DNA of 64,000 nt, from NCBI GenBank assembly GCA_964016885.1, contig OZ024741.1:292206001-292270000 (forward strand), written 5' to 3'. Source of the DNA: Eledone cirrhosa. Its lineage: Eukaryota. Positions 34,086 through 54,867 of the stretch are shown here, in pieces. A model generated the notes under the pieces. The model did not search any database and had not been told where the DNA came from. It was given only the letters and a program-made list of their open reading frames with translations. The first letter of the stretch is position 1; each line of letters opens with the position of its first letter. Position numbers and translations under genes: made by a program.

Positions 34086-34207
34086 TTAATTTTAAAATAT
34101 TTACATGAGAGTCAAAAGGTGATACAGCTTTTCTTCCCTTTAATAAATTGCTCTTGTTATTATTGCTCGCTTTATCGAAATGCACTTAAATAACAAAGGT
34201 GCAACTA

Positions 34208-35812
34208 CTGCCACCTGTCTCTTCCCCCACCATGTGAACCTTCCACCACCACCACTGCCACCTGTCTCTTCCCCCACCATGTGACCCTTCCACCACCACC
34301 ACTGCCACCTGTCTCTTCCCCCACCATGTGAACCTTCCACCACCACCACTGCCACCTGTCTCTTCCCCCACCATGTGACCCTTCCACCACCACCACTGCC
34401 ACCTGTCTCTTCCCCCACCATGTGAACCTTCCACCACCACCACTGCCACCTGTCTCTTCCCCCACCATGTGAACCTTCCACCACCACCACTGCCACCTGT
34501 CTCTTCCCCCACCATGTGAACCTTCCACCACCACCACTGCCACCTGTCTCTTCCCCCACCATGTGAACCTTCCACCACCACCACTGCCACCTGTCTCTTC
34601 CCCCACCATGTGACCCTTCCACCACCACCACTGCCACCTGTCTCTTCCCCCACCATGTGAACCTTCCACCACCACCACTGCCACCTGTCTCTTCCCCCAC
34701 CATGTGAACCTTCCACCACCACCACTGCCACCTGTCTCTTCCCCCACCATGTGAACCTTCCACCACCACCACTGCCACCTGTCTCTTCCCCCACCATGTG
34801 AACCTTCCACCACCACCACTGCCACCTGTCTCTTCCCCCACCATGTGAACCTTCCACCACCACCACTGCCACCTGTCTCTTCCCCCACCATGTGAACCTT
34901 CCACCACCACCACTGCCACCTGTCTCTTCCCCCACCATGTGAACCTTCCACCACCACCACTGCCACCTGTCTCTTCCCCCACCATGTGAACCTTCCACCA
35001 CCACCACTGCCACCTGTCTCTTCCCCCACCATGTGAACCTTCCACCACCACCACTGCCACCTGTCTCATCCCCCACCATGTGACCCTTCCACCACCACCA
35101 CTGCCACCTGTCTCATCCCCCACCATGTGAACCTTCCACCACCACCACTGCCACCTGTCTCTTCCCCCACCATGTGAACCTTCCACCACCACCACTGCCA
35201 CCTGTCTCTTCCCCCACCATGTGAACCTTCCACCACCACCACTGCCACCTGTCTCTTCCCCCACCATGTGAACCTTCCACCACCACCACTGCCACCTGTC
35301 TCTTCCCCCACCATGTGAACCTTCCACCACCACCACTGCCACCTGTCTCTTCCACCATGTGAACCTTCCACCACCACCACTGCCACCTGTCTCTTCCCCC
35401 ACCATGTGAACCTTCCACCACCACCACTGCCACCTGTCTCTTCCCCCACCATGTGAACCTTCCACCACCACCACTGCCACCTGTCTCTTCCCCCACCATG
35501 TGAACCTTCCACCACCACCACTGCCACCTGTCTCTTCCCCCACCATGTGAACCTTCCACCACCACCACTGCCACCTGTCTCTTCCCCCACCATGTGACCC
35601 TTCCACCACCACCACTGCCACCTGTCTCTTCCCCCACCATGTGAACCTTCCACCACCACCACTGCCACCTGTCTCTTCCCCCACCATGTGAACCTTCCAC
35701 CACCACCACTGCCACCTGTCTCTTCCCCCACCATGTGACCCTTCCACCACCACCACTGCCACCTGTCTCATCCCCCACCATGTGAACCTTCCACCACCAC
35801 CACCACCACCAC
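34208..35812. repeat. 47-bp minisatellite, ~34 near-identical copies
   Basis: Unit CTGCCACCTGTCTCTTCCCCCACCATGTGAACCTTCCACCACCACCA; period confirmed from 34208 to 34255. Confidence 0.98.
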
Positions 35813-36359: not shown

Positions 36360-37170
36360 TACTAGCAGCAGTACCCAGCGTTGCCTGGGTAGGTAAAATA
36401 ATATCTGCTTTGATGAAAAGGTGTTGATCTTAGCGACTGCTTCTCAATGACTCATCTATGGCCACACACAGGCCATGCGGGGGAGGGTGGTGATGACCTC
36501 TATCACTGAGAAACGCGGGTGACTGACGAAGGGGCATACTGGGGGAGGGAGGTAATGACCTCTAACACTAAGCCAAATTTCCTCACGCTACTTGATTGGA
36601 AACCGATGAATTCTCAAATACACAACTAAAAGCTCAGACGACGTCAGTGGCCATTGTTTTGCTTTTGACCATCTATAAGATGGGCAATGATAGCTTCTAT
36701 CGTAGTATAAAAGTTGAACCAAATAAATTAATTTATGTGTGAGGTGGAGCCGAAGTTTCGAATTTGAACGAAATCAATTGAAAAATGTGGGAGCTGAGCC
36801 GAAAAGGCGGAAATTTGAGCGAAAATGTGGTATTTTCGAATATTTACGCGGCTGCCACGCCGTTCCTGAACAACAAATGCAATATATAAAGCCATTACAG
36901 GATGTGCAATGATAAATTCTATTTTTCTTTAAAATTTGAAGGAAATCGGTGGCAAAATGCTAGAGCCAAAAATCTTATTTTAGATACCTAAAAAAAGGTG
37001 ACCCGCCTATCGATTTTTATCTGCAGAATGACCTGGGAATAAAAAAAACACGATACGCTGATATATAGAAAACACTATGACTAATCTATGAGCCTGTAAA
37101 GTTTCATGAAAATCGGTCGTAAGATGTAGGCCCTATAGGTAATAGGCAGACACACACATACTTAATTTTA
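36360..37170 (-). mobile_element. Non-autonomous Helitron/Helentron-like element
   Basis: Minus-strand 3' end CTAGT preceded by hairpin TACCCAG-GCAACG-CTGGGTA; AAATTTGAAGGAAATCGG / AAGTTTCATGAAAATCGG motifs; (CA) tract near the other end; inserted in (TA)n. Confidence 0.7.
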
Positions 37171-37175
37171 TATAT

Positions 37176-37235
<60 letters not shown>

Positions 37236-37450
37236 CGTTTCTGAATTTGTTTAGCAAGATTCTTTATCTGAAATCGTGTGTTGAAACCGATATTGTTATA
37301 CTTTGGGAGGGTCATGTTGCCAATAAGAAACACACGCACCAGTTGCTTTCACTTCAATTTAATTTAATATATATTTATAAATTTACAAATTTATAAATTT
37401 CTGGTTGGTTGGTTGGTTCCACAACCAGATAGTTGTTTATATATATATAT

Positions 37451-37495
37451 AGTCATAGTTCTTTCGTCACACACTCTGTGACCTCTTCAGTGACT
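37451..37495 (-). ncRNA. Minimal hammerhead ribozyme (left arm)
   Basis: Mirror image of 37604-37648. Confidence 0.75.
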
Positions 37496-37603
37496 GGGGA
37501 TTTCTTTCTTCGTTTCTGTGCCTTTCCTTTCTTCTATCCTACGCCAGAAAAATGGCGTAGGATAGAAGAAAGGAAAGGCACAGAAACGAAGAAAGAAATC
37601 CCC

Positions 37604-37648
37604 AGTCACTGAAGAGGTCACAGAGTGTGTGACGAAAGAACTATGACT
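37604..37648 (+). ncRNA. Minimal hammerhead ribozyme (right arm)
   Basis: AGTCA-CTGAAGA-GGTCAC-AGAGTGT-GTGAC-GAAA-GAAC-TA-TGACT. Confidence 0.75.
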
Positions 37649-37801
37649 ATATATATATATAAACAACTATCTGGTTGTGGAACCAACCAACCAACCAGAA
37701 ATTTATAAATTTGTAAATTTATAAATATATATTAAATTAAATTGAAGTGAAAGCAACTGGTGCGTGTGTTTCTTATTGGCAACATGACCCTCCCAAAGTA
37801 T

Positions 37802-37849
<48 letters not shown>

Positions 37850-38760
37850 ATATCATGTTTCTCACATTTAATCAATGTTACATACATCATTAATATATGT
37901 TCTGTTCTTCTTATAGGTAAGTCATCAAATGTCTTTGTTTCATCCATTTACCAATTCCAAGGAATTTTGTGACAGATAGAAGACTACAAGAATACAATAT
38001 GGAGATGAATGAAGGAAATTTAGCAGCAGGATTTTGTATTGGACGGACATCTGGGTGGGCTTTAATTGATTGGAACCAACTACTACAGGTGAATAATTCA
38101 GTGTAGTTTATGTGTGTGCATTGTGCCTGTGAGTGCGTATGTTGTGTATGTATGCACATAATGTATATATATGCATGATAAATTATACATGCCTTGGAAT
38201 GTACCAGATTATACCTACACACGCACAAACTAATATATATATATATATATATTAGTTTGTTGTACGTGACTGGGTATCATCTGTGGGTATAATTGTGTGG
38301 GTATAATTGACAATTGAAAATATTCTAATAATAGGGCATTTAAGCCCCGATAACAGAAAAAAATGAGCATTAGCATATGTAGGAATAAAAAATATGAGGT
38401 GTGGGTTCGATTCCCGCACATGCTAATTGCTACTTTCTTTTCCAGTATGTATTCAATATATGCTGAAAGCTTCTAAATCTATGTTCAAAATGTTCAATTG
38501 CCATTGTATAGTCACACATGCTCTCCAAAGTAGCTGACAGAATAGACACGTGTATCTTTTTCTCATTTTTTTTTTCTGTTCTTTCCTCTTCTCACAGTTT
38601 ATCTTTCTATTTCATCTTTTATTTCTAATTCTAATGAAGGAATATTGTCTGAAACATTAAGACTCTTTTCTTGTTATTTCAAGTGTTAAATATATTTTTT
38701 CAATGTACTGTATCATTTGCTTTATGTCTGTTTACTTTTTACACACATACACACACACAA

Positions 38761-39240: not shown

Positions 39241-39247
39241 ATATATA

Positions 39248-39500
39248 TATTGTTATACTTGGGGAGGGTCATATTGTTGTAATAACATTGCCAGAATTAA
39301 TAACAGAATACACTCACTGTTTGGTTGGTTTTCGCTTCTGTATCTTTTATATCAGTTAATTCATTCGGTCCTCAATGTTTACCATTGACTGACCAACGGT
39401 CAAAAATACAGATATAATATAGATATAAACACATATATATAGTCTAACAAAGTTCTTTCGTTGCACATCTGCAACTTCGTCAGTGGTGCTATTATGTTCC
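39248..39500 (-). mobile_element. PLE-like pLTR, reverse copy of 698-937, decayed hammerhead at 39446-39489
   Basis: Colinear similarity; core CTGACGA-AGTTGCAGATGTGCAAC-GAAA, but stem I is weak. Confidence 0.7.
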
Positions 39501-39526
39501 TACTGTTGTATTGTATAACTACGCCT

Positions 39527-39620
<94 letters not shown>

Positions 39621-40219: not shown

Positions 40220-40906
40220 AGGGACGCCATGCTTTGACGCGTTACGGTCCTTTTCGTTCTGAGTTCAAATCCCGCCGAGGCTAACTTTGCCTTTCATCCT
40301 TATGGGGTCGATAAAATAAAGTACCAGTAATGCACTGGTTATTGCTGGATTGTGCCAAAAGTAGAACCAATTATTATTATTAATACATAATTGTTTCTAC
40401 TTTTGGCACAAGGCCAGCAATTATTCCAGTGCATTACTGGTACTTTATTTTATCGACCCCGTAAGGATGAAAGGCAAAGTTAACCTCGGCGGGATTTGAA
40501 CTCAGATCATAAAGGGAGGTAACTCTATGCTTCAAAGCATGGCGTCCGACCCTTACCGATACTGCCAATACATAATGGGCGGTAGATTGGCAGTATCGGT
40601 AGAGGGTCGGACGCCATGCTCTGCAGCATTGAGTTACAGACCTTTATGATCTGATTTCAAATCCCGCCGATGTTAACTTTGCCTTTCATCCTTACGAGGT
40701 CGATAAAATAAAGTACCAGTCACGCACTGGGGTAATAGCTGGCCTTCTGCCAAAAGTAGAAACAATTATTATTATTAATACATGTATATATATTAAATCA
40801 CGCCGAGGTTGACTTTGCCTTTCATCCTTACGGGGTCGATAAAATAAAGTACCAGTAATGCACTGGATAATTGCTGGCCTTGTGCCTAAAGTAGAAACAA
40901 TTATTA

Positions 40907-54431: not shown

Positions 54432-54612
54432 CCTTTTTCTTGTACTTTTGGCTAAGATCAAAGTGTACCATCTGTTCTATTCAGCTGAAAATCTGATATT
54501 GTTCTGAAATGGGATCATCAATATAAATATTAATCTGATTTTTAGAACTAGACCAAAATTCAGGAGCTTACTCTGCCTTTGCCAAATATGGCAGTACTTC
54601 CAGGATTAAGTC
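54432..54612 (+). pseudogene. U2: U2 snRNA pseudogene
   Basis: CTTTTGGCTAAGATCAAAGTGTA..ATCTGTTCT..CAG..ATCTGATA, Sm site GATTTTTAG, AGGAGCTT, GCAGTACTTCCAGGA colinear with U2; branch-pairing GTAGTA mutated to GTACCA. Confidence 0.88.
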
Positions 54613-54867
54613 ATTTAGACTGCAACAACAATAGCCATAATATAAACATCACACTCCTTCTAATCAGCTTCTCGGTCATGTTTTCTTTAAAAGAACAGAG
54701 TCTGCATAGAGTAGAGAGATATCTTTAGCCATGAAGTTGATGAGACATCTTGTGTAGAGTAAGTGCTATGATAAAATAAACTCAGTACATTCTCTAAAAT
54801 GGTTGATGATAGAACAGAGACAATGTACCCTACAGGCAACTCTTTATTTATGTCAATATGTAAGCGA

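What the first reader, a model, noticed from the sequence alone, without database searches (positions are those of the whole stretch)
37290..37809. 520-bp perfect-looking palindrome carrying two divergent hammerheads
Seen: 257-bp arms with a 6-nt loop and no mismatch noticed by eye; each arm reads outward as HHR, then ATGACCCTCCCAAAG. Inference: a very recent head-to-head PLE-type insertion (inverted 5' ends are a known PLE trait). Either transcript would form a long hairpin that masks its own ribozyme and would be an ADAR or Dicer substrate; the DNA could extrude as a cruciform.
Basis: partly seen in the sequence, partly recalled or inferred. Interest (0 to 1): 0.75.

Follow-up and report, generated by a model that had tools for sequence, protein, structure and literature searches.

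The report
Head-to-head Penelope retrotransposon end pair
This perfect hairpin is two short end pieces of a very abundant Penelope-like jumping gene joined head to head in a TA repeat, a known kind of insertion; its hundreds of sister copies suggest it was likely made by two reverse transcriptions, one from each side of the DNA cut, that both ran to the predicted capped start of the element's RNA.

Summary
The palindrome is real: 257-bp arms, 100% complementary, 6-nt loop, one minimal type-I hammerhead per arm. It is an ordinary insertion of an endonuclease-bearing Penelope-like element (RT + GIY-YIG, Neptune-type linker) with about 25,000 exact end copies in this genome. The insert is about 576 bp: the left arm carries a further 56-nt 'tail', and both ends abut (TA)n. 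All 49 of 49 fully scored sister hairpins have one tailed and one tail-less arm; older ones have diverged arms, so a fold-back artefact is unlikely. 456 loci turn at this same spot (controls 0 and 2); 242 arms begin at the A-run there (controls 7 and 7), with G in front in 73 of 100 listed. Here the loop belongs to the tail-less arm, which simple cDNA snap-back cannot give. Best reading: twin target-primed reverse transcription of a capped, sense RNA starting at a YY1-like motif (inferred; no RNA data). Hairpin masking of the ribozyme applies only to read-through RNA. The architecture is published; the scan reached the same mechanism earlier on other DNA, in this genome too.

The parts
37169..37233 (.). 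(TA)n microsatellite, left part of the target site
   Evidence: all scored sister insertions abut (TA)n or AT-rich DNA
37234..37289 (-). 'Tail': 56 nt that continue the element past the mirrored part to the family's outer 3' end; codes for the next residues of the ORF N-terminus
   Evidence: continues into the ORF in tandem copies L046 and L119
37290..37546 (-). Left arm (tailed), pLTR copy that begins 4 nt after the inferred RNA start and lacks the A-run of the YY1-like motif
37451..37495 (-). Left minimal type-I hammerhead motif
   Evidence: mirror of the right motif
37547..37552 (+). Loop: G and one A not in the family sequence, then the four templated A that open the right arm; G read as a likely copy of the RNA cap
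   Evidence: loose ends of ordinary copies begin at 37549
37549..37557 (+). YY1-like motif at the inferred transcription start (position -317 from the tail end); motif name recalled, not from a call
   Evidence: against controls 29, 30, 65, 66
37553..37809 (+). Right arm (tail-less), ends at the family's inner 3' end, 60 nt before the tail end
37604..37648 (+). Right minimal type-I hammerhead: 5-bp stem I, full core with one extra base before stem II, 6-bp stem II, 2-bp stem III, predicted cut after A37643
   Evidence: architecture as in PMC4209133
37784..37809 (+). Start of the element's ORF (MTLPKYNN), cut off at the (TA)n; the left copy starts at 37315 and runs 28 codons through the tail
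37806..37846 (.). (TA)n microsatellite, right part of the target site

Best explanation
The hairpin is a single young insertion of a Penelope-like retrotransposon, two pLTR copies head to head in a (TA)n repeat, likely made when both cut strands of the target each primed reverse transcription of the element's sense RNA and both copies ran to its predicted capped 5' end. Shown: family identity, two fixed 3' ends (tail end and 60 nt inside it, both ending in AATAT), one of each per insertion, the (TA)n target, the pile-up of 5' ends at the A-run and the G before it. Inferred: the GIY-YIG domain cuts both strands in (TA)n; each 3' OH pairs with one AUAU site just inside the ORF start and primes a cDNA; RNA starts at the A-run of a YY1-like internal promoter; the RT copies the cap as an extra C (G on the sense strand); the two cDNA ends are joined by a 2-nt microhomology (CA/TG here) and filled in. 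The hammerheads are passengers of the pLTR, would need a dimer or protein help to cut, and are predicted to be paired away in read-through RNA only.
For: Family: 8,904 exact copies of the hammerhead core and 24,983 of the end 27-mer; upstream ORF with YVDD RT, CX4CxxC linker and GIY-YIG/CCHH (Pfam RVT_1 only at E 0.001, below cut-off). One tail per hairpin: 49 of 49 loci with both ends scored, of 58 examined; in loci drawn by the 3' end, 29 of 30 head-to-head pairs by eye (exception L162). Turning-point hotspot: 456 loci against 0 and 2 about 45 nt either side. One-sided starts: 242 against 7 and 7; 9 of 91 arms drawn by the 3' end start within -312..-331, against 0 and 1 in the neighbouring 20-nt windows (by eye). 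G directly before the A-run in 73 of the 100 listed, T in 7, C in 20 (by eye); in 30 inspected arms 23 G, of which 7 can be read as the partner's templated letter, against 5 T. A family variant that would template the G exists once. L181, L190/191, L194 and L176/177 carry G+A-run on both arms. Of 10 exact copies of this junction the loop belongs to the tailed arm in 6 and to the tail-less arm in 4, this locus included; a snap-back of a tail-less cDNA cannot write a tail. 12 private substitutions are shared by both arms in 10 of 44 loci. In vitro the anole PLE cuts and extends both strands and starts at two sites that bound the tail (PMC11167929); D. virilis Penelope starts transcription in its pLTR (PMC8557442, PMC2377424, passages); a 5' G is read as a copied cap in SVA/L1 (PMC2912911, passage).
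Against: No transcript, cap or start site was observed. The extra fifth A is unexplained. The G count is by eye, on 100 of 242 matches, and the pattern barred C next to a four-A run. The controls are single sites whose 10- or 19-mers may be less conserved. A second cluster of 5' ends lies at -258..-267 (6 of 91 arms), which control 30 just missed, and symmetric junctions also occur at short AT palindromes (-111, -135, -172), so sequence effects matter too. L162 has two tails. In PMC11167929 the start site is not homologous to the cut DNA, whereas here AUAU pairing is inferred. Shared private variants could also come from gene conversion or a common source locus; in only 6 of 44 loci are the arms closer to each other than to any other locus.
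Confidence: 0.65

Rival explanations
1. Snap-back: one cDNA folds on itself (or an antisense RNA self-primes, as proposed in PMC3846280) and the RT copies it back to make the second arm.
For: Gives identical arms and shared private variants; 2-nt microhomology at the turn; 6 of 10 exact junction copies have the loop on the tailed arm, as snap-back predicts.
Against: In this locus, L081, L082 and L084 the loop is on the tail-less arm while the other arm has the tail; tail-less arms are often the longer ones; some loci have G+A-run on both arms; the G stands on the sense strand.
Confidence: 0.13
2. Twin priming is right, but the hotspot is an RT stall or a favoured joining site rather than the RNA's capped start.
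For: Other clusters of 5' ends exist (-258..-267; AT palindromes); 7 of 23 G can be the partner's letter; RTs add untemplated bases.
Against: About 35-fold excess over two control sites; G rather than random letters; true breaks at the hammerhead cut site have T, not G, in front in most cases; a related family's copy at 39243-39530 starts at the homologous place.
Confidence: 0.14
3. The palindrome is itself a non-autonomous family that is copied as a unit from a hairpin master.
For: The exact 32-nt junction occurs 10 times.
Against: 27 different loops among the 50 loci listed (by eye); the 10 exact copies have the tail on either side and differ in their arms.
Confidence: 0.05
4. Fold-back read or assembly artefact.
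For: Arms are 100% identical; no record spanning the whole locus was seen (central 191 bases only).
Against: The mirror stops exactly at the family's inner 3' end, the tail and both flanks are not mirrored; the same layout at older loci has arms 5-22 substitutions apart; a 54-nt contig of run X1 at depth 59 holds the sister junction with a four-A loop, though with under 31 letters per side.
Confidence: 0.03

Closest known systems
Insertion units of endonuclease-bearing Penelope-like elements with inverted pLTR and one-sided tail (Adineta Pen2a, D. virilis Penelope, Naiad; PMC3846280, PMC8557442, PMC2377424, passages)
   Same: pLTR with hammerhead and the first ORF codons, inverted 5' copy next to it, tail at one end only, heavy 5' truncation, partial tandems (L119, unit 4,084 nt).
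   Different: Tail is 56-60 nt rather than 30-40; here the insert has no body at all, only two pLTRs; junction statistics point to a sense, capped template, not the antisense self-priming proposed in PMC3846280.
Neptune (or Nematis) clade of PLEs
   Same: C-terminal GIY-YIG with CCHH, CX4CxxC linker, microsatellite targeting.
   Different: No tree against named references was built, so the clade label rests on motifs.
PAc (Poseidon of Anolis) in vitro system (PMC11167929, parts 1-2 of 4 read)
   Same: Both strands cut and extended, two RT start sites bounding the tail, AT-rich target.
   Different: There the hammerhead overlaps the ORF start and priming is reported without homology; here the hammerhead lies about 140 nt before the ATG and both 3' ends finish in AATAT, which can pair with (TA)n.
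L1 twin priming and cap-derived 5' G (PMC2912911, passages)
   Same: Both DNA ends prime on the RNA, cDNAs joined by microhomology; extra G at full-length 5' ends.
   Different: L1 twin priming uses the poly(A) end and a random inner site and gives non-overlapping pieces; here two fixed sites 60 nt apart give overlapping copies and so a palindrome.
Minimal type-I hammerheads of metazoan PLEs (PMC4209133, parts 1-2 of 4 read)
   Same: Short stem I, long stem II, extra base between 9 and 10.1, G10.1-C11.1, tiny stem III; dual motifs 100-700 bp apart on opposite strands already reported in Schistosoma.
   Different: Loop 3 region is not strictly palindromic; activity untested.

Membership tests
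EN+ Penelope-like element | Single ORF with RT and C-terminal GIY-YIG endonuclease in the parent element | tested here: met
   863-aa open frame in L148 with YVDD and VVY..YIG motifs read by eye; Pfam RVT_1 weak, below cut-off; 121 relatives at E<=1e-10, best named one from Octopus vulgaris, 69%
EN+ Penelope-like element | CCHH motif with two Cys inside the GIY-YIG core | tested here: met
   read by eye in the L148 protein; definition from PMC8557442
EN+ Penelope-like element | pLTR holding a hammerhead and the ORF start; tandem and inverted copies; optional tail | tested here: met
Neptune/Nematis clade | CX2-5CxxC linker between RT and EN | tested here: met
   CIDKKCITC in L148
Neptune/Nematis clade | Placement in the RT phylogeny | not tested
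   no named reference sequences were in hand
Hydra or Naiad clade | No CCHH and CxCX5C linker (Hydra); N-terminal EN and no hammerhead (Naiad) | tested here: not met
Minimal type-I hammerhead | Full catalytic core, stems I-III, NUH triplet | tested here: met
   core and stems; triplet CUA here and CUU in the older subfamily; no Rfam hit
Minimal type-I hammerhead | Self-cleavage | not testable with these tools
   genomic trace weak: 12 of 20 inspected of 26 matches are true breaks at the cut site, against 7 and 7 at control sites
Non-LTR retrozyme | Head-to-tail tandem of hammerhead units | tested here: not met
   two units head to head; definition in 10.64898/2026.07.22.740005, part 1 of 5
MITE / fold-back DNA transposon | Copied as a unit with constant inner structure and symmetric termini | tested here: not met
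   27 loops in 50 loci, asymmetric ends

The most novel reading that the evidence does not exclude
The genome holds a fossil record of the PLE integration reaction: a dimeric RT-endonuclease primes from both cut strands at two fixed AUAU sites near the 5' end of a capped, sense RNA started at a YY1-type initiator, copies the cap, and has the two cDNAs joined head to head. This one rule would explain the inverted pLTR, the one-sided tail and the fixed pLTR boundary, and would leave hundreds of promoter-bearing 257-bp hairpins that can seed new copies and outward transcripts.
Probability: 0.5. Interest if true: 0.65.

Novelty: new member of a known kind. Interest (0 to 1): 0.42.

Why it matters
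The locus itself is routine. Its value is as a clean case of a structure whose origin the PLE literature calls unresolved (PMC8557442, passage). The family offers thousands of independent events with two fixed priming sites, a sharp run-off site and a cap-like G, which give exact predictions for a CAGE experiment and for the existing in vitro system. Perfect hairpins at this frequency are also likely a large source of double-stranded RNA wherever genes read through them, and a trap for assemblers.

Tried and rejected
BLAST-type search of the own genome with the arm returned nothing, not even the locus itself: uninformative, common words are skipped. Rfam: only hairpin-driven miRNA matches below their thresholds. 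No RNA holder listed. Read laying covered the central 191 bases only, was swamped by family copies and cannot confirm this locus. A family variant templating the loop's G was sought and found once. The hammerhead cut site as main source of 5' ends: only a weak excess. ESM Atlas gave no answer. Host gene: the candidate exon has no hit in PDB sequences, Pfam or among longer proteins; a Pfam scan of 95 of 289 candidate frames of the window found only retroelement domains and weak zinc-finger, PHD and FAM27 hits. Literature: 'Penelope-like' + 'twin priming' + 'inverted' + 'target-primed' listed one general review (listing only); Penelope + YY1 + promoter + pLTR listed no paper holding all four; the cap-G search listed none. 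The library lacks most subscription journals and I opened no supplements, so prior description is not excluded. In one search three apparent duplicate loci and two with grossly deleted arms were dropped (44 of 49 kept).

Full report
Observation. The arms 37290-37546 and 37553-37809 are exact reverse complements, 257 nt, with a 6-nt loop. Each holds a hammerhead core read outward. By hand the right one has a 5-bp stem I, the full core with one extra base before stem II, a 6-bp stem II, a 2-bp stem III and a CUA triplet; stems I and II form in one arm alone (pair probabilities about 0.55 and 1.0) and vanish in the whole insert, which folds at -467 kcal/mol. Rfam does not call it. This matches the minimal type-I motifs described for metazoan PLEs, which cut poorly and probably as dimers (PMC4209133, parts 1-2 of 4).

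Family. The hammerhead core occurs 8,904 times and the end 27-mer 24,983 times exactly in the 3.0-Gb genome. [quoted passage not shown] By the features in PMC8557442 (passages) this is a Neptune- or Nematis-type PLE; no tree was built. The best named relative is from Octopus vulgaris (69%), so the host is likely an octopod.

Anatomy. The element does not end at 37290: on the minus strand it continues 56 nt to the family's outer 3' end at about 37234, then (TA)n. The right arm ends at the inner 3' end, 60 nt earlier, and also meets (TA)n. Mapped on the natural unit, nearly all arm ends fall at these two places, and both end in AATAT. Of 58 hairpin loci examined, 49 had both ends scored and all 49 have one tailed and one tail-less arm. 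Among loci drawn by the 3' end, 29 of 30 head-to-head pairs do, by eye; L162 has two tails. Inverted pLTRs with a one-sided tail are published (PMC3846280, PMC8557442, passages).

Real and young. A fold-back artefact would mirror the tail and the flank; here the mirror stops at the family's inner end. Older loci with the same layout have arms 5-22 substitutions apart, and the arm here is identical to arms at L072 and L083, so perfect symmetry reflects youth. Reads could be laid only on the central 191 bases; they show the family in two RAD-seq runs of the same species label and one short contig with a sister junction, but nothing spanning this locus.

The turning point is a hotspot. 456 loci invert within 12 nt before the same 10-mer, against 0 and 2 at sites about 45 nt up- and downstream. 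The 50 listed show 27 different loops (by eye), so these are mostly separate events. One-sided patterns that demand three non-family letters in front gave 242 arms starting at the A-run, 7 and 7 at control sites and 26 at the hammerhead cut site, of which 12 of 20 inspected are true breaks. In loci drawn by the 3' end, 9 of 91 arms start within -312..-331, 0 and 1 in the neighbouring windows, and 6 in a second cluster at -258..-267 (by eye). The letter before the A-run is G in 73 of the 100 listed, T in 7 and C in 20 (by eye); of 30 inspected arms 23 have G, 7 of them explicable by the partner arm, and 5 have T. The family has C there, and the variant that would template G plus five A exists once. 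A 5' G is read as a copied cap in SVA and L1 (PMC2912911, passage). The site is a YY1-like motif (consensus recalled; YY1 motifs around ubiquitous promoters in amphioxus are mentioned in PMC6292497, passages), and Penelope's start lies in its pLTR. I infer a capped Pol II start at -317. The fifth A is unexplained.

Two cDNAs rather than one. In snap-back the loop and the longer 3' end must belong to the first cDNA. The exact junction of this locus occurs 10 times; the loop belongs to the tailed arm in 6 and to the tail-less arm in 4, this one included. A tail-less cDNA cannot template a tail. Four loci carry G plus A-run on both arms. Private substitutions shared by both arms (12, in 10 of 44 loci) suggest one source per event, but conversion or a shared source locus is not excluded. 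The anole PLE protein cuts and extends both strands, starts at two sites that bound the tail and is predicted to be a dimer (PMC11167929, parts 1-2 of 4), which fits; its reported lack of primer homology does not.

Consequences. Only RNA reading through from outside would form the 257-bp duplex. The right arm keeps the whole inferred start and would send a single-arm RNA rightwards; the left arm has lost the A-run. A single-copy 56-codon frame with splice-like ends lies about 110 nt right of the arm but has no homologue in three searches, so an intronic setting is possible, not shown. Editing, dicing and cruciform formation are untested.

Earlier notes. My reading was written down before the look-ups. 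Unreviewed notes of this scan reach the same mechanism for other families in this genome and in others; none matched this sequence. They are not independent evidence. One literature search for twin priming with PLEs listed only a general review.

Verdict. Observation confirmed; a new member of a known kind; the mechanism is a likely, testable inference (0.65). Interest 0.42.

Noticed in passing
window 37922-38088 (+): Single-copy 56-codon open frame with a pyrimidine tract and AG before it and GT after it, about 110 nt right of the palindrome; possible host exon, no homologue found.
   Followed up: partly
window 39243-39530 (-): pLTR of a related PLE family (same ORF start, different hammerhead stem II) whose 5' end meets (TA)n at the place homologous to the hotspot.
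   Followed up: partly
whole window: 21 hammerhead-core-like matches against 2.9 expected, from several families, some as divergent pairs such as 48303/48498.
   Followed up: no
window 40387-40769: Second inverted repeat, 167-nt arms at 91%, made of a SINE-like dispersed repeat.
   Followed up: no
window 34207-35810: 34 copies of a 47-nt C-rich unit at 98% identity with strong GC skew.
   Followed up: no
window 54432-54623 (+): Degenerate U2 snRNA copy, likely a pseudogene.
   Followed up: no
window 36360-37168: AT-rich-flanked repeat left of the target, resembling a Helitron-type non-autonomous element (recalled resemblance).
   Followed up: no
L148:850-1150; family unit about -3440..-3150: The parent ORF's N-terminal part holds an (AAC)n, Asn/Thr/His-rich stretch, like the N-rich inserts of Adineta Penelope elements.
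   Followed up: no
family positions -258..-267: Second cluster of 5' breakpoints (6 of 91 arms) at the 5' strand of hammerhead stem I; cause unknown.
   Followed up: partly
L162:279-840: Exception with two tailed arms, followed by a tiny second inverted piece.
   Followed up: partly
L199, L200, L204-L207, L214, L216: Recurrent 2-nt deletion that removes the hammerhead's cleavage triplet letters in 8 of 20 inspected copies; a possible ribozyme-dead sub-lineage or a scar at the cut site.
   Followed up: no
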